Below are positions 60,599 through 64,000 of a stretch of 64,000 nt of DNA, one piece after another. Source of the stretch: Escherichia phage BME3. Where the stretch lies: the sequence record PP239276.1. One strand, given 5' to 3'. A program made the position numbers and the translations under genes. The notes below the pieces were generated by a model. It saw only the letters and a list, made by a program, of their open reading frames with translations, was not told where the DNA came from and searched no databases. Position 1 is the stretch's first letter. The number at the start of each line of letters is the position of its first letter.

Positions 60599-60695
60599 TG
60601 GCAGCAAGGTGAGGAATCGAACCCCTTGATCTATGGTTTGGAGCCATATTGAGTACCATACTCTTTTAAATCTACCCGGCTATGAGTTCCTTGAA
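60599..60695 (-). tRNA. tRNA-like, possible Trp(CCA); 5' half aberrant, 5' end uncertain
   Basis: CCA, acceptor 3' strand, T-loop AATCGAA and canonical anticodon arm with loop CUCCAAA; no matching 5' acceptor strand at expected distance. Confidence 0.3.
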
Positions 60696-60739
60696 GTGTC
60701 AATGTAACTTAATCATTACACCAGAAGGGAGGTATTTAT

Positions 60740-60818
60740 TGGAGGCGGGAGTAGGATTTGAACCTACGATCTCCAGCATATGAAACTGGCGAGGACGACC
60801 AGACTCCTCTATCCCGCG
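60740..60818 (-). tRNA. tRNA-Met/Ile2 (CAU), CCA encoded
   Basis: T-arm GTAGG-ATTTGAA-CCTAC, anticodon loop UUCAUAU, D arm with 11 nt loop, 1:72 mismatch. Confidence 0.6.
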
Positions 60819-60833
60819 CAATCTGTAGTAATT

Positions 60834-60909
60834 TGGTTGATAGTAAGAGAATCGAACTCTTCTCGCAATGCCTTATGAAAGCACTCGAAACGCCAGCTTC
60901 ACACTATCA
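60834..60909 (-). tRNA. tRNA, probable CAU anticodon, atypical anticodon-arm register
   Basis: perfect 7 bp acceptor and T-arm AAGAG-AATCGAA-CTCTT, CCA encoded; anticodon arm only folds with 6 nt variable loop. Confidence 0.45.
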
Positions 60910-60997
60910 ATGGCTAACCCTTTATAACCCGTCTTGGCGTGGTATCCTTAACAGGACGGTAGATATCCGTTGCAAACCCTATGATATCTCTTAGATA

Positions 60998-61082
60998 TGG
61001 TAGCTAAGGTGAGACTCGAACTCACAATCCCTTGGGGCAATACGTTCTAAGCGTATCGTGTATACCATTCCACCACTTAGCC
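60998..61082 (-). tRNA. tRNA-Leu (UAG), type II
   Basis: CCA, acceptor, T-arm GTGAG-ACTCGAA-CTCAC, 14 nt variable arm, anticodon loop CUUAGAA. Confidence 0.7.
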
Positions 61083-61158
61083 ATAAAAATACACCACTGT
61101 AAGAAGCCTCAATGTGCTATTGACAGTTAACCAAGTCTACTCCTTGGATGGTGATATT

Positions 61159-61233
61159 TGGTGCAGAGAGATGGTAACGATCCATCCTTTCTACCTTTTC
61201 AGGGTAGCACTAATCCGTCTCAGCTATCTCTGC
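61159..61233 (-). tRNA. tRNA-Phe (GAA)
   Basis: CCA, perfect acceptor, anticodon stem CTACC/GGTAG with loop CUGAAAA; non-canonical T-loop. Confidence 0.55.
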
Positions 61234-61238
61234 AAATT

Positions 61239-61314
61239 TGGTCAGTGCGGCAGGACTCGAACCTGCGACCTGAAGCGTCCAAGGCTCCCACGCTACCAAC
61301 TGCGCTACGCACTG
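61239..61314 (-). tRNA. tRNA-Pro (UGG)
   Basis: CCA, perfect acceptor, T-arm GCAGG-ACTCGAA-CCTGC, anticodon loop CUUGGAC. Confidence 0.7.
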
Positions 61315-61321
61315 TAAATCT

Positions 61322-61396
61322 TGGCTGGAGATCTAGGAATCGAACCTAGTCATCACGACTTCAAAGGCCGTTGCCTTCCCACTAGGCTAATCTCCA
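61322..61396 (-). tRNA. tRNA-Gln (UUG)
   Basis: CCA, perfect acceptor, T-arm CTAGG-AATCGAA-CCTAG, anticodon loop CUUUGAA. Confidence 0.7.
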
Positions 61397-61495
61397 ATAA
61401 AACTAAAAATCACTTAAAAAGAACCGCTAGAGTTTGAAGGAGAAAACCATGAGCGAAAAGAGAAATTTTCTCTAGCGATTCCATTTAAATAATCT

Positions 61496-61570
61496 TGGAG
61501 CGAGTAACAGGACTTGAACCTGCACCTGGAGGGTGGAAACCTCATATGCTACCATTAACACTATACCCGC
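61496..61570 (-). tRNA. tRNA-Gly (UCC)
   Basis: CCA, perfect acceptor, T-loop ACTTGAA, anticodon loop UUUCCAC. Confidence 0.6.
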
Positions 61571-61582
61571 TTAACAATATTA

Positions 61583-61611
61583 CTCTAACATATTATTAGC
61601 CCCTTTGTCAA
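61583..61611 (-). promoter_or_regulatory. minus-strand promoter upstream of tRNA block (TTGACAA - N16 - TTAGAG)
   Basis: reverse complement reads TTGACAAAGGGGCTAATAATATGTTAGAG; predicted start a few nt upstream of tRNA 5' end. Confidence 0.5.
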
Positions 61612-61625
61612 GAGGCTTTTGATAT

Positions 61626-61955
61626 TTATTTTAAAATAGTAGATGAACCACGTCTGTTTAGATATGCAATAGTAAAGTCCAAATCACCTATTTCTTCAGG
61701 TTCCCACTGACCTTCTAAGCCATAACAAGAACAATGATATGCGTGTACTTCATAAAACAAAGATGTTTTCATATCATAAAAATAAACGTGAGATTCACCT
61801 TCATAATATGCACAATCATAAGTGGCAGAAAGAATTACAATGTTATCCTTATCTAACTCTACTTCATAATATCTTTCAACATCTTCAATATGATCAAAAC
61901 CATCGAAAACATTGATATTAAAATATTTCTCTAACTCTTTTTCTGTCACATACAC
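61626..61955 (-). CDS. hypothetical protein embedded in tRNA region
   Basis: 109 aa ORF between tRNA genes. Confidence 0.5.
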   Translation of the reverse strand: MYVTEKELEKYFNINVFDGFDHIEDVERYYEVELDKDNIVILSATYDCAYYEGESHVYFYDMKTSLFYEVHAYHCSCYGLEGQWEPEEIGDLDFTIAYLNRRGSSTILK

Positions 61956-61972
61956 TCCTTTAGAGTTAAAAT

Positions 61973-62047
61973 TGGTGCTCCCACAAGGACTCGAACCCTG
62001 ATAAGTTGCTTACAAGGCAACCGTAATAGCCGTTATACGATAGGAGC
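61973..62047 (-). tRNA. tRNA-Thr (UGU)
   Basis: CCA, acceptor with G-U pairs, T-loop ACTCGAA, anticodon stem GTTGC/GCAAC loop CUUGUAA. Confidence 0.65.
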
Positions 62048-62053
62048 AATACT

Positions 62054-62130
62054 TGGACTCGACAGGATTCGATACCTGCAATTCCAGAAGCCTCTTGGCG
62101 ACTGGGGGTTTACCTTAACTCTACAAGTCC
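62054..62130 (-). tRNA. tRNA-like, atypical (8-nt T-loop, unresolved anticodon arm)
   Basis: 7 bp acceptor pairing 62055-62061 with 62124-62130; T-arm folds only with 8-nt loop ATTCGATA. Confidence 0.3.
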
Positions 62131-62137
62131 ATAATTC

Positions 62138-62222
62138 TGGCGATGGATCAAGGATTTGAACCTTGCTAGAACTTTCGTTCACGGATTAACAGTCCGTCGC
62201 CCAACCACTAGGCCAATCCATC
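62138..62222 (-). tRNA. type II tRNA whose anticodon reads GUU
   Basis: CCA, perfect acceptor, T-arm CAAGG-ATTTGAA-CCTTG, variable-arm hairpin GAAC-TTTC-GTTC, anticodon stem ACGGA/TCCGT loop CUGUUAA. Confidence 0.5.
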
Positions 62223-62229
62223 TTTAATT

Positions 62230-62316
62230 TGGTGCAGGTAGTTGGACTCGAACCAACGAAGCCCAGAAGGGCAAGAGATTTACAGTCTCCAGCAATTGCC
62301 GCTATGCGATACCTAC
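62230..62316 (-). tRNA. tRNA-Tyr (GUA), type II
   Basis: CCA, perfect acceptor, T-arm GTTGG-ACTCGAA-CCAAC, 16 nt variable arm, anticodon loop CUGUAAA. Confidence 0.7.
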
Positions 62317-62321
62317 GTGTT

Positions 62322-62397
62322 TGGTACATCGTGAAGGATTCGAACCTTCGACCTTGGAGTTAAAAGCCCCTTGCTCTACCAACTAAGCTAACGATGT
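62322..62397 (-). tRNA. tRNA-Lys (UUU)
   Basis: CCA, perfect acceptor, T-arm GAAGG-ATTCGAA-CCTTC, anticodon loop CUUUUAA. Confidence 0.65.
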
Positions 62398-62522
62398 ATA
62401 AATTATCTTTAAAATAGCCAGTGTTTGCGGCACTTGACTATGGGATATCGGTAAGATGGTGGGGCCATCTGCCGAAAGTTTACTCTGTTAAAGTAAGATG
62501 ACAAGCTACATTAAAGATAACT

Positions 62523-62608
62523 TGGCGGTAGATGTAGGACTTGAACCTACACGCCGTTTCCGACGACAGTTTAGCAAACTGTTGTGGCTACCATTTCACC
62601 AATCTACC
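62523..62608 (-). tRNA. tRNA-Ser (GCU), type II
   Basis: CCA, perfect acceptor, T-arm GTAGG-ACTTGAA-CCTAC, long variable arm, anticodon stem ACAGT/ACTGT loop UUGCUAA. Confidence 0.7.
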
Positions 62609-62616
62609 GTTCTTAA

Positions 62617-62769
62617 TTATTCAAAACAACCGGAATCTTTTTGTTCTGCTTTTACCATACGAATATTTTTACCATCTTCAGATTGTTGAAGATTAGAATA
62701 CTCATAAATAACTTTATTATCTACAATCTTAACTCCGGTAACAACCTGTCCAATAGTTTTATAATTCAT
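62617..62769 (-). CDS. hypothetical small protein
   Basis: internal ATG at 62769 with AGGAGC RBS; track ORF to 62817 would overlap the next tRNA. Confidence 0.35.
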   Translation of the reverse strand: MNYKTIGQVVTGVKIVDNKVIYEYSNLQQSEDGKNIRMVKAEQKDSGCFE

Positions 62770-62787
62770 AAAGCTCCTAGTTGAATT

Positions 62788-62877
62788 TGGAGGAAGATAA
62801 TGGAGTCGAACCATCACCGTATCGCTACAATGGGCCAGGGTTCAAACCTGGTTGCGCACCGCTGCGCCCTACCTTCC
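62788..62877 (-). tRNA. tRNA-Ser (UGA), type II
   Basis: CCA, acceptor, T-loop AGTCGAA, 19 nt variable arm, anticodon stem CCAGG/CCTGG loop UUUGAAC. Confidence 0.65.
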
Positions 62878-62893
62878 CGTTATCATACTTTAA

Positions 62894-62922
62894 ATCTAAC
62901 ATAAAACTATGTTGCTTGTCAA
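62894..62922 (-). promoter_or_regulatory. minus-strand promoter (TTGACAA - 17 nt - TTAGAT)
   Basis: reverse complement reads TTGACAAGCAACATAGTTTTATGTTAGAT, about 15 nt upstream of tRNA 5' end. Confidence 0.5.
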
Positions 62923-62940
62923 GTAGTTTTTAAAACTTTT

Positions 62941-63022
62941 TGGCCGGGGTGACAGGATTCGAACCTGCATACTCCAATTACTCGGTTAACGCCTGATTAG
63001 AAGTCAGGTGAGATACACCCCG
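62941..63022 (-). tRNA. tRNA-like with Arg(UCU) anticodon arm, apparently lacking a normal D arm
   Basis: CCA, perfect GC-rich 7 bp acceptor, T-arm ACAGG-ATTCGAA-CCTGC, anticodon stem CCTGA/TCAGG loop CUUCUAA; only 7 nt between anticodon stem and 5' acceptor strand. Confidence 0.4.
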
Positions 63023-63092
63023 TTTTCACAGTAACTATAACAAAAAACTAAGTAAATGTCAAGATATTTTTTACTAAATTGCTATTTAAATT

Positions 63093-63165
63093 GAAGCCTA
63101 GTTATGGAATCGAACCATATTTCGTATTTAGTTAGACAAAGCGATCTAACATATTTTTCAGGCTT
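63093..63165 (-). tRNA. tRNA-like, atypical (no encoded CCA; internal hairpin has 8-nt loop)
   Basis: perfect T-arm TATGG-AATCGAA-CCATA; 7 bp acceptor possible only with 2-nt offset. Confidence 0.35.
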
Positions 63166-63202
63166 TGATGGCCTCGGAATTACCAAATACCCTACCAGGC
63201 GT

Positions 63203-63288
63203 TGGTGCAAGTGGAGGGATTCGAACCCTCAATCATTTAAGCGTTGCGTTTTAAGCACAATGTGTATCACCAATTCCACCACACTTGC
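63203..63288 (-). tRNA. tRNA-Leu (UAA), type II
   Basis: CCA, perfect acceptor, T-arm GAGGG-ATTCGAA-CCCTC, 13 nt variable arm, anticodon loop CUUAAAA. Confidence 0.7.
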
Positions 63289-63319
63289 ATATAGGAGATG
63301 CATAGCACCTCCTTTTAAA

Positions 63320-63395
63320 TGGTGGTTCCCCAGGGTTACAATCCCTGCCCTCGACACTTATGAGGTGTGCGCTCTCGTCAGTGAGCTATGGAACC
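63320..63395 (-). tRNA. tRNA-Met/Ile2 (CAU)
   Basis: CCA, 6 bp acceptor, D stem GCTC/GAGC, anticodon loop CUCAUAA, T-stem CAGGG/CCCTG with non-canonical loop. Confidence 0.55.
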
Positions 63396-63402
63396 TTGAA
63401 TA

Positions 63403-63669
63403 TTAAGCATACTGGGTCATTTCACCAGCTTCGCGTTTCTCCAGAAGAACTGTAATCAAAGCAATAGCTGCTTCTTCTTCGTGAGGAAGCCCCATTTCAT
63501 CCAGAAGAGCAAGGAAGTCAATTACCAAACTTTCTGTTTTAAGGCTCACGCTACCATTTTCGTTTTCAGTAAGAACTGATTCAGGTTCAAAAATAAAGAT
63601 TGCTCCACCTTTATTATCAATCAATACGTGCTTCTCAATCAATTCTTTACCATAAGTACGTTCTGTCAT
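63403..63669 (-). CDS. hypothetical acidic protein
   Basis: 88 aa ORF, promoter-like motif upstream. Confidence 0.5.
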   Translation of the reverse strand: MTERTYGKELIEKHVLIDNKGGAIFIFEPESVLTENENGSVSLKTESLVIDFLALLDEMGLPHEEEAAIALITVLLEKREAGEMTQYA

Positions 63670-63699
63670 AGTTTTCTCCTTTTTGTTTAACTTGTGCTT

Positions 63700-63729
63700 A
63701 TCTTAGCAAATAACTAGCTATGTTGTCAA
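63700..63729 (-). promoter_or_regulatory. minus-strand promoter (TTGACAA - 18 nt - TAAGAT)
   Basis: reverse complement reads TTGACAACATAGCTAGTTATTTGCTAAGAT. Confidence 0.45.
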
Positions 63730-63836
63730 CTAGTTTTTACAATATTTTTTCTTGATCTGTAACCTAGTGTATAACCACATACAAAAGATACAATAGCAAT
63801 AAAAACAGATAAGCCAAAAATAATTTCTGTAGACAT
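63726..63836 (-). CDS. hypothetical small membrane peptide
   Basis: 36 aa ORF read by hand (MSTEIIFGLSVFIAIVSFVCGYTLGYRSRKNIVKTS), AGGAAA RBS. Confidence 0.25.
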   Translation of the reverse strand: MSTEIIFGLSVFIAIVSFVCGYTLGYRSRKNIVKTS

Positions 63837-63848
63837 ACTGTTTCCTTA

Positions 63849-64000
63849 ATTATGTGAAATCTAATTCCTCCTCTGGTGCTGTGTAATTTAGAAGAAGATC
63901 AGTTACACTTTGATGTTGATAAACCCTTTCGGGACTGTCATCGAATGCCAAACTTGTACAAATCGAGCATAGATCCGACTCTTGAATATTACCATTCCTG
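63849..64000 (-). CDS. hypothetical protein, 5' partial (continues beyond window)
   Basis: open frame on minus strand from window edge to stop at 63849-63851. Confidence 0.35.

What the first reader, a model, noticed from the sequence alone, without database searches (positions are those of the whole stretch)
62941..63022. tRNA-like gene with Arg(UCU) anticodon arm but no room for a D arm
A GC-rich perfect acceptor stem (62945-62951 with 63016-63022), an encoded CCA, a canonical T-arm and a canonical anticodon arm (loop CUUCUAA) are all present, yet only 7 nt separate the anticodon stem from the 5' acceptor strand while 23 nt lie between the T-arm and the anticodon arm. That is a D-arm-less or rearranged architecture.
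Basis: seen in the sequence. Interest (0 to 1): 0.5.

Follow-up and report, generated by a model that had tools for sequence, protein, structure and literature searches.

The report
Phage arginine tRNA with rewired D-arm
This is a real, conserved phage gene for an arginine tRNA whose D-arm is not missing but split and re-ordered around the anticodon arm, one member of a widespread, mostly unannotated class of non-cloverleaf tRNAs that standard tRNA finders miss.

Summary
On the minus strand, 63022-62941 encodes an 82-nt RNA with a 7-bp acceptor stem, an anticodon arm (UCU), a T-arm, G73 and CCA. Only 7 nt precede the anticodon stem and 23 nt follow it. ARAGORN misses it; Rfam tRNA hits it (38.6 bits) only by deleting the D-arm.

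It is not D-arm-less. Across 122 distinct homologues from many phage lineages, nt 11-13 (CUC) pair with nt 40-42 (GAG). About 96-97% of cells are paired and the middle pair takes all four Watson-Crick forms. RNAalifold predicts this helix independently. The hairpin favoured by energy folding is only 49% paired and is rejected.

After the 3' strand comes an invariant D-loop-like motif, U-A-R-(N)-U-G-G-A, then a tail ending in A-N. That last base tracks R15' (A with U in 100, G with G or C in 21), like the 15-48 Levitt pair.

All but one member carry Arg anticodons (UCU, CCU, ACG, CCG, UCG). The bacterial Arg identity set is kept. The genes sit in tRNA arrays next to canonical tRNA-Arg genes with other anticodons.

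The window gene has a near-consensus promoter, and AGA is 28% of Arg codons here.

Best reading: a functional tRNA-Arg with blocks 10-21 and 22-47 swapped. Charging, decoding and 3D fold are inferred. I found no published description.

The parts
63016..63022 (-). Acceptor stem, 5' strand (RNA nt 1-7, CGGGGUG)
   Evidence: Pairs perfectly with 62945-62951. All 7 pairs show double-sided changes in the family and 98.8% of cells are paired.
63013..63015 (-). U8 A9 (invariant) and U10 (equivalent of position 22, facing U43)
   Evidence: U8 and A9 are invariant in 74/74 aligned members. Position 10 is U/C/G/A opposite an invariant U.
63010..63012 (-). Helix X, 5' strand (nt 11-13, CUC). Sits where the 3' strand of a D-stem would sit, just before nt 26 and the anticodon stem.
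   Evidence: Pairs with 62981-62983. 96.8% of cells are paired and all 3 pairs show double changes. The middle pair is GC 34, UA 24, CG 10, AU 6 with none unpaired. RNAalifold predicts it.
63009..63009 (-). A14, the single unpaired base between helix X and the anticodon stem (equivalent of position 26)
   Evidence: Always exactly one nt in the 7-nt-linker class: A 37, C 27, G 6, U 5.
62992..63008 (-). Anticodon arm: stem CCUGA/UCAGG, loop CUUCUAA, anticodon UCU at 62999-63001
   Evidence: Sequence read. The stem covaries freely. U33, C35 and A37 are invariant. Family anticodons are UCU 78, CCU 20, ACG 9, CCG 9, UCG 5, CUU 1.
62984..62991 (-). Connector CGUUAACC (nt 32-39) between the anticodon stem and helix X 3' strand; equivalent of variable-loop positions 44-47
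   Evidence: Length varies by sub-class: 3-5 nt in most members (AGNA, UGAAA) and 8 nt (CGUUAAYN) in the enterobacterial and Streptomyces phage class.
62981..62983 (-). Helix X, 3' strand (nt 40-42, GAG); equivalent of D-stem positions 10-12
   Evidence: Same covariation as for 63010-63012.
62973..62980 (-). D-loop-like element U43 A44 A45 U46 U47 G48 G49 A50 (13', A14', R15', Y16', Y17', G18', G19', A20')
   Evidence: U13', A14' and G18' are invariant; G19' and A20' are nearly invariant in the MAFFT alignment, and my sequence parse required the GGA motif. The motif matches the D loops of canonical tRNA-Arg genes in the same arrays. R15' tracks the last base before the T stem.
62969..62972 (-). 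Tail GUAU (nt 51-54) leading into the T stem. The penultimate A is invariant. The last U is the candidate equivalent of position 48.
   Evidence: A(-2) is present in all but one sequence of the census, which still included two canonical tRNAs later discarded. For the last base, A15' goes with U in 100, G15' with G in 11 or C in 10, and there is one A/A exception.
62952..62968 (-). T-arm GCAGG UUCGAAU CCUGU
   Evidence: Canonical T loop; 99.5% of cells are paired. Identical to the T-arm of the canonical tRNA-Arg(UCU) of T5-like phage DT57C.
62941..62951 (-). Acceptor 3' strand CACCCCG, discriminator G73 (62944), encoded CCA (62941-62943)
   Evidence: Sequence read. CCA is encoded in 65 of 96 members. 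The discriminator is G, A or U, all listed for bacterial Arg identity.
63034..63062 (-). Promoter-like site: TTGACA, 17 nt, (TG)TATAGT, ending 12 nt upstream of the mature 5' end
   Evidence: Best consensus match in 60300-64000, 11 of 12 with an extended -10 TG. This is a consensus match only; transcription is not shown.

Best explanation
The locus is a functional gene for tRNA-Arg(UCU) with a non-cloverleaf core. It has normal acceptor, anticodon and T arms. The D-arm hairpin is replaced by a helix that brackets the anticodon arm: nt 11-13 (CUC), right after U8-A9-U10, pair with nt 40-42 (GAG) on the far side of the anticodon arm. A D-loop-like segment (U-A-A-U-U-G-G-A) follows and runs through a short tail straight into the T stem. 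In standard numbering the order 8-9 | 10-21 | 22-47 | 48 has become 8-9 | 22-47 | 10-21 | 48, that is, two adjacent blocks are swapped.

Shown: the four helices, the conserved motifs, the Arg-only anticodons (one exception) and the genomic setting.

Inferred:
- The gene is transcribed from its own sigma-70-type promoter and trimmed at a short leader.
- The rewired strands rebuild a D-stem stacked on the anticodon stem.
- G18'G19' dock on the T loop and R15' pairs with the last tail base as a Levitt pair.
- Host ArgRS charges it through the A20 equivalent, C35, U36 and G73.
- It reads AGA (and AGG by wobble), which the phage uses heavily and E. coli rarely.

Why the wiring changed is unknown. 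Escape from host enzymes or defence nucleases that read the normal D-arm or elbow is a speculation.
For: Structure:
- Helix X is 96.8% paired with double changes at all three pairs, against 36.6-45.7% paired for the whole structure when every 3' partner is slid by 1-3 columns.
- A test anchored on sequence motifs alone gave 216/225 paired, against 136 +/- 6.4 in shuffles, 0 of 2000 reaching the observed value.
- RNAalifold finds the helix unaided.
- In the final census, 358/372 cells are paired over 124 parsed sequences, two of which were later discarded as canonical tRNAs.

D-loop analogy:
- The U-A-R-(N)-U-G-G-A motif is invariant or nearly so and equals the D loop of canonical tRNA-Arg genes in the same arrays.
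- R15' tracks the last tail base: A/U 100, G/G 11, G/C 10, A/A 1.

Arg identity:
- 121 of 122 distinct members carry Arg anticodons, although the collecting pattern and the covariance model set no anticodon requirement.
- C35 is invariant, position 36 is U or G, the A after GG is nearly invariant, and the discriminator is G, A or U. This is the published bacterial Arg identity set (PMC9976931).

Role:
- The genes sit inside tRNA arrays. In the arrays examined, the rewired and canonical tRNA-Arg genes found did not share an anticodon.
- It is the only tRNA-Arg found in the window's array.
- AGA is 27.9% of Arg codons in the window's long ORFs.
- There is a near-consensus promoter 12 nt upstream.
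- CCA is encoded.

Relatedness and plausibility:
- The acceptor 5' strand, T-arm, G73 and CCA are identical to the canonical tRNA-Arg(UCU) of a T5-like phage; the acceptor 3' strand differs at one base.
- E. coli HisRS, EF-Tu and the ribosome accept a D-arm-less tRNA (PMC11551756).
Against: - There is no direct evidence here of transcription, processing, aminoacylation or decoding.
- The 3D claim rests on sequence analogy and one tertiary covariation, and related sequences inflate such counts.
- In a sub-class with an 8-nt linker, A9 is itself paired (helix Y). The U8-A14-type contacts therefore cannot be universal, and the invariant penultimate A of the tail could pair with U8 instead of A14'.
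- One member has a Lys anticodon, CUU.
- The conserved base pair of helix X (C11-G42) is at the end far from the anticodon stem, unlike G10-Y25 in normal tRNAs.
- ARAGORN rejects the gene, and the Rfam score is modest.
Confidence: 0.75

Rival explanations
1. Same secondary structure, but no canonical-like core. Helix X merely lengthens the anticodon stem up to a three-way junction, as proposed for D-arm-lacking mitochondrial tRNA-Ser. The UAAUUGGA stretch is then a flexible connector, and the tRNA works as a floppy 'boomerang' rather than a rigid L.
For: The helices are nested exactly as in an extended anticodon stem. In the window sequence U8-A9-U10 could also pair with G51-U52-A53, giving a continuous 6-bp helix with an 8-nt bulge. 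The 8-nt-linker sub-class has just such an extra helix Y, which covaries: AGC/GCU, AGU/ACU, AGA/UCU. E. coli tolerates a D-arm-less tRNA.
Against: Mitochondrial D-arm-less tRNAs lose the conserved D-loop and T-loop bases. This family keeps G18'G19', A14' and a canonical UUCRANY T loop. It also shows an R15'/last-tail-base dependency typical of the Levitt pair. Outside the GUAU class the tail is not complementary to U8-A9-U10.
Confidence: 0.3
2. A tRNA-shaped decoy or anti-defence RNA that is not used for decoding. It would mimic tRNA-Arg to soak up or evade a host anticodon nuclease or another tRNA-targeting defence.
For: Phage tRNAs are known to counter tRNA-targeting defences (references cited in PMC12916289). 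That paper reports that retron Eco2 cuts host tRNA-Arg among other tRNAs. An altered core could change nuclease recognition. The restriction to Arg could reflect an Arg-specific nuclease.
Against: The complete ArgRS identity set, the encoded CCA and an intact 7/5 acceptor-T domain for EF-Tu are all kept. Five different Arg anticodons complement the canonical tRNA-Arg genes in the same arrays. The phage uses AGA heavily and I found no other tRNA-Arg in the window. Escape from a nuclease and decoding are not mutually exclusive.
Confidence: 0.12
3. A truly D-arm-less tRNA with a long variable arm: the 23-nt stretch folds on itself as CCGA-GUAA-UUGG. This is the minimum-energy fold and the reader's first alternative.
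For: The ViennaRNA MFE structure of the window RNA contains this hairpin, at -26.3 kcal/mol with z = -1.87.
Against: Across 74 homologues only 49.3% of cells in that hairpin are paired, and individual pairs are broken in 24-51 sequences. The competing helix X is 96.8% paired. The hairpin would also use the same GAG bases as helix X.
Confidence: 0.03
4. A decayed tRNA pseudogene left in the array after a deletion of the D-arm and an insertion in the variable loop.
For: ARAGORN does not call it. Most GenBank records leave it unannotated. The phi92 record annotates nothing there.
Against: Full-length homologues at 82-100% identity occur in 233 phage records spanning Justusliebigvirus, Felixounavirus, Asteriusvirus, Sugarlandvirus and Mydovirus. 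A Streptomyces phage has a 69%-coverage blast match whose full-length gene was recovered later. There are over 100 distinct variants in uncultured viral contigs. Compensatory changes are seen in all stems, with invariant loop positions.
Confidence: 0.02

Closest known systems
Canonical bacterial and phage tRNA-Arg, e.g. tRNA-Arg(UCU) of T5-like phage DT57C (KM979354.1 30917-30991)
   Same: The acceptor 5' strand CGGGGUG, T-arm GCAGGUUCGAAUCCUGU, G73 and encoded CCA are identical; the acceptor 3' strand differs at one base. The anticodon loop CUUCUAA is the same. The D-loop motif A-R-Y-Y-G-G-A and the Arg identity elements A20, C35, U/G36 and N73 are shared. Both sit in phage tRNA arrays.
   Different: The canonical gene has its D hairpin between positions 10 and 25 and a 4-nt variable loop. 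In the window gene, one D-stem-like strand precedes the anticodon arm, while the other strand plus the D-loop-like element follow it. Rfam can align the window gene only by deleting the D-arm.
D-arm-lacking mitochondrial tRNAs, e.g. metazoan mt tRNA-Ser(AGY/UCU) (reviewed in PMC7609411)
   Same: There is no hairpin at the D position and only a short connector between the acceptor and anticodon stems. The anticodon helix can be drawn as extended. By coincidence the anticodon is also UCU.
   Different: The mitochondrial tRNAs have lost the D loop and the conserved D/T-loop bases, and they use adapted partner proteins. This family keeps G18G19-like, A14-like and A20-like bases and a canonical T loop, and it is found in phages of bacteria that have standard translation machinery.
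Non-canonical bacterial and phage tRNAs with 8/4 or 9/3 acceptor/T branches (allo-tRNAs, Mukai et al., PMC5389517)
   Same: They were found by mining phage and metagenome sequence, depart from the textbook cloverleaf, and some carry AGA/AGG anticodons.
   Different: Allo-tRNAs keep a normal D-arm and a long variable arm and change the acceptor/T stem lengths. Here the acceptor/T branch is the standard 7/5 and the D region is what is re-ordered.
Permuted and split tRNA genes (Cyanidioschyzon merolae, Nanoarchaeota)
   Same: Sequence blocks of a tRNA appear in a non-standard order (established knowledge; PMC3728597 appeared in the search results).
   Different: Those genes are permuted at the gene level and are processed or ligated back into an ordinary cloverleaf tRNA. 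Here the 5' and 3' ends are in normal order. Only internal blocks are swapped and nothing suggests re-ligation, so the mature RNA itself would have the new topology.
Engineered D-arm-less 'mini HisT' working in E. coli (PMC11551756)
   Same: It shows that E. coli synthetase, EF-Tu and the ribosome can use a tRNA without a normal D-arm.
   Different: Mini HisT is artificial, lacks any D-loop substitute, and needed a pnp mutation for stability. The family here is natural, widespread and keeps a D-loop-like element.

Membership tests
tRNA (Rfam RF00005, canonical cloverleaf) | Score at or above the curated gathering threshold | tested here: met
   38.6 bits against a gathering score of 29 at 62944-63022 (-).
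tRNA (Rfam RF00005, canonical cloverleaf) | 7-bp acceptor stem, discriminator and 3' CCA | tested here: met
   CGGGGUG/CACCCCG, G, CCA; 98.8% of cells paired across the family.
tRNA (Rfam RF00005, canonical cloverleaf) | 5-bp anticodon stem with a 7-nt loop, U33 and purine 37 | tested here: met
   CCUGA-CUUCUAA-UCAGG; U33 and A37 are invariant.
tRNA (Rfam RF00005, canonical cloverleaf) | 5-bp T stem with a UUCRANY loop | tested here: met
   GCAGG-UUCGAAU-CCUGU; 99.5% of cells paired.
tRNA (Rfam RF00005, canonical cloverleaf) | D-arm hairpin (stem 10-13/22-25 plus loop) between the acceptor and anticodon stems | tested here: not met
   Only 7 nt are available. The Rfam alignment replaces 15 model positions with 4 nt. 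ARAGORN makes no call.
Bacterial tRNA-Arg (identity set per PMC9976931) | C35 and U36 or G36 | tested here: met
   The window anticodon is UCU. C35 is invariant in the 74-member alignment; in the 122-member census only the single CUU member lacks it, and position 36 is U or G throughout.
Bacterial tRNA-Arg (identity set per PMC9976931) | A20 in the D loop | tested here: inconclusive
   A nearly invariant A directly follows the GG doublet (A50 in the window RNA), as in canonical tRNA-Arg D loops. Whether ArgRS sees it in the same spatial position cannot be told from sequence.
Bacterial tRNA-Arg (identity set per PMC9976931) | Discriminator A/G73 (U73 also listed) | tested here: met
   G in the window. 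Across 96 members: G 36, A 31, U 28, C 1.
Bacterial tRNA-Arg (identity set per PMC9976931) | Aminoacylation with arginine by ArgRS | not testable with these tools
   Needs an in vitro charging assay or in vivo acylation analysis.
D-arm-lacking tRNA (mitochondrial tRNA-Ser(AGY) type) | No D-stem or D-loop equivalent anywhere in the molecule; loss of the conserved G18G19/T-loop partners | tested here: not met
   Helix X plus the UAAnUGGA motif are conserved and covary. The T loop is canonical.
Class II tRNA (long variable arm) | Self-paired stem-loop in the variable region | tested here: not met
   The candidate hairpin CCGA/UUGG is only 49.3% paired across the family.
Gene-level permuted or split tRNA | The 3' half is encoded upstream of the 5' half (or on separate loci), with processing back to a normal cloverleaf | tested here: not met
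   Acceptor 5' and 3' strands are in normal order on one strand and bracket the whole gene. No second half is needed.
Rewired-D tRNA-Arg family defined here (covariance model R1) | Acceptor, U8-A9-N, 3-nt strand, N, anticodon arm, connector, 3-nt partner strand, U-A-R-(N)-U-G-G-A, tail ending A-N, T-arm | tested here: met
   The window scores 81.1 bits, while ordinary tRNAs in the window score 25 or less. In about 200 viral loci, family members score 47-91 bits and ordinary tRNAs 41 or less. The window sequence was part of the seed, so its own score holds by construction.

The most novel reading that the evidence does not exclude
A natural tRNA topology that is neither cloverleaf nor arm-less. 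Nucleotide blocks 10-21 (5' D-strand plus D loop) and 22-47 (3' D-strand, anticodon arm, variable loop) are swapped along the chain, yet the molecule still rebuilds the L-shaped core. It is charged by ordinary ArgRS and decodes Arg codons in bacteria. The class is widespread in phage tRNA arrays, and in some arrays on bacterial MAG contigs. It is confined to arginine and largely invisible to ARAGORN and to genome annotation. It may exist because the altered core escapes host factors that read the normal D-arm.
Probability: 0.5. Interest if true: 0.85.

Novelty: new variant of a known kind. Interest (0 to 1): 0.78.

Why it matters
[quoted passage not shown] A common, conserved, isotype-specific exception operating with standard bacterial translation machinery would revise that view.
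- It would be a natural experiment on how much chain connectivity the tRNA core tolerates, which bears on tRNA folding, ArgRS, EF-Tu and ribosome recognition, and orthogonal tRNA design.
- Phage tRNA counts and codon-usage analyses under-count tRNA-Arg. Most records leave this gene unannotated or call it 'tRNA-Undet'.
- If the rewiring protects against tRNA-targeting defences, it is a new counter-defence strategy that can be tested directly in E. coli phages already in culture (phi92-like, Felix O1-like).

Tried and rejected
1. Canonical cloverleaf: ARAGORN makes no call, and Rfam aligns the locus only with the D-arm deleted.
2. The MFE variable-arm hairpin CCGA-GUAA-UUGG is rejected: only 49.3% of cells are paired in the family.
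3. Pseudogene: rejected by conservation and compensatory change.
4. Plus-strand features: only sub-threshold chance Rfam hits (PreQ1, a plastid 3'UTR element).
5. Pairing of the last tail base with A9: rejected. A9 is invariant, whereas that base changes with R15'.
6. A general helix between U8-A9-U10 and the tail: it fits only the GUAU class and the 8-nt-linker sub-class, not the AGNA or UGAAA classes.
It gave 7 members on MAG contigs. One lies next to an integrase and one lies in a 25-tRNA array flanked by cellular genes. Cellular versus mobile-element origin remains unresolved.
8. Seven literature searches and two reviews produced no description of this architecture. The library lacks most subscription journals, so prior description cannot be excluded.
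9. One phage paper lists an 'Arg_TCT' at the matching array position, so tRNAscan-SE probably calls the gene there without comment on its structure. I did not verify this.

Full report
**What is there**

Read on the minus strand, window 63022-62941 gives an 82-nt RNA:

CGGGGUG-UAUCUCA-CCUGA-CUUCUAA-UCAGG-CGUUAACCGAGUAAUUGGAGUAU-GCAGG-UUCGAAU-CCUGU-CACCCCG-G-CCA

- a perfect 7-bp acceptor stem;
- an encoded CCA;
- a canonical T-arm;
- a canonical anticodon arm with anticodon UCU;
- 7 nt before the anticodon stem and 23 nt after it.

The gene lies in an array of tRNA genes that all run on the minus strand (60518-63395). ARAGORN of them but not this one. Rfam's tRNA model does hit it, at 38.6 bits against a gathering score of 29. 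It does so only by collapsing 15 D-arm positions to 4 nt and inserting 20 nt in the variable region.

**Where the window comes from and how widespread the element is**

The surrounding 751 nt are 97-99% identical to phi92-like E. coli phages (Justusliebigvirus, Stephanstirmvirinae).
- The phi92 record annotates nothing at this spot.
- One relative labels it 'tRNA-Undet'.

A 96-nt query found 233 phage records covering at least 80% of it at 82-100% identity. These include:
- Felixounavirus;
- jumbo Asteriusvirus;
- Sugarlandvirus (Demerecviridae);
- Mydovirus.

A Streptomyces phage (Karimacvirus) matched over 69% of the query, and its full-length gene was recovered later. Nearly all of these matches are unannotated.

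With a second pattern and a covariance model, the census reached 122 distinct sequences.

**It is not D-arm-less**

Homologues show a third internal helix. The three bases before the last linker base (CUC in the window, nt 11-13) pair with the three bases just upstream of a conserved U-A-R motif in the long stretch (GAG, nt 40-42).

The triplet pairs observed are CUC/GAG, CGG/CCG, CGC/GCG, CCC/GGG, CAC/GUG, CAG/CUG, CGA/UCG, CGU/ACG, CUU/AAG and CUG/CAG.

Three tests agree:
- A test anchored only on sequence motifs, with no reference to complementarity, gave 216 of 225 positions paired. Shuffles gave 136 +/- 6.4, and 0 of 2000 reached the observed value.
- On a plain MAFFT alignment of 74 members, the helix is 96.8% paired with double-sided changes at all three pairs. 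The middle pair is GC 34, UA 24, CG 10, AU 6, and is never unpaired. When every 3' partner of the whole structure is slid by 1-3 columns, pairing drops to 36.6-45.7%.
- RNAalifold predicts the same helix without being told.

The hairpin that energy minimisation puts in the 23-nt stretch (CCGA-GUAA-UUGG) is only 49.3% paired and is rejected.

**The D-loop-like element**

Directly after the 3' strand of this helix comes U-A-R-(N)-U-G-G-A. It is invariant or nearly so.

The same motif (A14 R15 Y16 Y17 G18 G19 A20) forms the D loop of canonical tRNA-Arg genes in the same arrays.

A tail of 3-6 nt then runs into the T stem.
- Its penultimate base is always A.
- Its last base depends on R15': A15' goes with U in 100 sequences, and G15' goes with G in 11 or C in 10. 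There is one exception.

This is the behaviour of the 15-48 Levitt pair (A-U, G-C, and G-G as in E. coli tRNA-Cys; established knowledge).

In standard numbering the chain therefore reads 1-7, 8-9, [22-25, 26, 27-43, 44-47], [10-21], 48, 49-72. Blocks 10-21 and 22-47 have changed places.

The three new junctions (9 to 22, 47 to 10, 21 to 48) join residues that are neighbours in the canonical core. There, A9 contacts 12-23, position 45 contacts 10-25, and A21 lies next to the 8-14 and 15-48 layers (established knowledge). I could not measure these distances here.

A tandem duplication of 10-47 followed by loss of the outer copies would produce this order. That is an inference.

**Why I think it is a working tRNA-Arg**

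1. Of 122 members, 121 carry Arg anticodons: UCU 78, CCU 20, ACG 9, CCG 9 and UCG 5. The remaining one carries CUU. Neither the collecting pattern nor the model constrained the anticodon.
2. The published bacterial Arg identity set is A20, C35, U/G36 and A/G/U73 (PMC9976931). All of it is retained.
3. The genes sit inside tRNA arrays. In the arrays examined, the rewired and canonical tRNA-Arg genes found did not share an anticodon. Examples:
   - canonical ACG with rewired UCU;
   - canonical UCG with rewired ACG, CCU and UCU.
4. In the window it is the only tRNA-Arg found. AGA makes up 27.9% of Arg codons (10.8 per 1000) in 45 long ORFs. AGA is rare in E. coli (established knowledge).
5. The best sigma-70-like site in 60300-64000 (TTGACA, 17 nt, TG-TATAGT; 11 of 12) ends 12 nt upstream of the mature 5' end.
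6. The acceptor 5' strand, T-arm, discriminator and CCA are identical to the canonical tRNA-Arg(UCU) of a T5-like phage. The acceptor 3' strand differs at one base.
7. E. coli's machinery has been shown to accept a D-arm-less tRNA (PMC11551756).

None of this demonstrates transcription, charging or decoding. Those steps are inferred.

**Limits and complications**

- An 8-nt-linker sub-class has a further covarying helix between the first linker bases and the tail (AGC/GCU, AGU/ACU, AGA/UCU). This makes the D-loop-like element a bulge in a continuous helix. The tertiary contacts therefore cannot be identical across the family, and a looser 'extended anticodon stem' fold remains a serious rival for the 3D picture.
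- Counts over related sequences overstate independence, although ten different triplet pairs cannot be explained by ancestry alone.
- The family is not strictly viral. Seven members turned up on MAG contigs, one next to an integrase and one in a 25-tRNA array between cellular genes.
- A decoy or anti-defence role cannot be excluded and could coexist with decoding.

**Comparison with what is known**

- It passes the Rfam tRNA threshold and has three of the four cloverleaf arms, but it fails the D-arm criterion.
- It is not a mitochondrial-type D-arm-less tRNA, because it keeps the D-loop and T-loop signature bases.
- It is not a class II tRNA, because the variable hairpin is not supported.
- It is not an allo-tRNA, because the acceptor/T branch is the standard 7/5.
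- It is not a gene-level permuted tRNA, because the ends are in normal order.

Seven full-text searches and two reviews gave no description of this architecture. A 2024 paper states that all known bacterial tRNAs are canonical cloverleaves.

Some annotations do call the gene tRNA-Arg or tRNA-Undet. The gene has therefore been seen, but I found no report that its wiring was noticed. The library is incomplete, and I put the chance of a prior description at roughly one in four.

**Verdict**

- This is a new structural variant of tRNA, defined here by a covariance model, with a good comparative case for function.
- Interest: 0.78.

Noticed in passing
window 60599-60665 (minus strand): A second unannotated tRNA-like gene that really does lack a D-arm. 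It is about 61 nt plus G and an encoded CCA. After the acceptor comes the linker UACUCA, then an anticodon arm with loop CUCCAAA (anticodon CCA, Trp), a 5-nt variable loop and a T loop UUCGAUU. Rfam tRNA scores 22.9 bits (below the gathering score of 29) with the D-arm deleted, and ARAGORN misses it. It is conserved in Justusliebigvirus, with diverged copies in Klebsiella phage FKP3 (84%), Hafnia phage SarahDanielle (77%) and Citrobacter phage Tr1. These show compensatory changes in the anticodon stem.
   Followed up: partly
window 63095-63172 (minus strand): A degenerate tRNA-like stretch just upstream of the promoter of the rewired tRNA-Arg. It has a T-arm UAUGG-UUCGAUU-CCAUA, a 6-bp hairpin GUUAGA/UCUAAC with an 8-nt loop and an imperfect acceptor. 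It has no GG motif, and Rfam gives no tRNA hit even at E <= 10. It is found only in about 30 Justusliebigvirus records. The phi92 alignment has a gap of about 125 nt in this region, so phi92 probably lacks it; I did not map the gap.
   Followed up: partly
window 63034-63062, 62893-62922, 61582-61611, 63700-63729 (all minus strand): Near-consensus sigma-70 promoter-like sites (TTGACA, 17-18 nt, an extended -10). Three sit directly in front of individual tRNA genes (rewired Arg, Ser-UGA, Gly) and one in front of the small ORF 63403-63669. There were 17 sites against 9.2 +/- 2.7 expected.
   Followed up: no
window 60834-60909, 62788-62877, 63320-63395 (minus strand): Three tRNAs called by ARAGORN (Met-CAU, Ser-UGA, Met-CAU) do not reach the Rfam tRNA gathering score. 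The phi92 record flags the Ser as a pseudogene and the last Met as 'hypothetical tRNA'.
   Followed up: no
L151:11003-11080 (minus strand), IMG/VR contig: The only family member without an Arg anticodon. It has the rewired architecture (55.9 bits with model R1) but loop CUCUUAA, anticodon CUU (Lys). It could be an isotype switch, a missense suppressor or a decaying copy.
   Followed up: no
L035:9457-9536, L055:1156-1237, L143:5524-5602, L151:7435-7514, L151:10185-10265: A sub-class with an 8-nt linker (UAGC-CNN-N) and a long tail (GCUGAAAAU). The first linker bases pair with the tail (AGC/GCU, AGU/ACU, AGA/UCU), so the D-loop-like element becomes a bulge between two helices.
   Followed up: partly
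L155:1178-1539, L319:1410-1655, L293:2107-2346, L076:8183-8420: In uncultured viral contigs, three rewired tRNA-Arg genes with different anticodons (for example ACG, CCU, UCU) lie in tandem within one array.
   Followed up: no
L012:5421-5508, L015/L017/L030, L005/L019, L025 (IMG/VR loci): tRNAs with a normal D-arm and a UCU anticodon, plus a long self-paired variable arm. That is class II architecture, which is not expected for Arg. They could be allo-tRNA-like or recoding tRNAs.
   Followed up: no
L298:6924-7015 and L281:376-476 (IMG/VR loci): Canonical-looking tRNAs with a UCU anticodon loop interrupted by an insertion of about 20-30 nt right after CUUCUA (…CTTCTATGTGAA…CACATGG…), possibly a small intron.
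   Followed up: no
L327:1-76 (Escherichia phage DT57C): The canonical T5-like tRNA-Arg(UCU) lies directly after an annotated 'RNAX, stable RNA with unknown functions'. That tRNA itself has an unusually small D-arm (3 bp, 5-nt loop) and a 6-bp anticodon stem.
   Followed up: no
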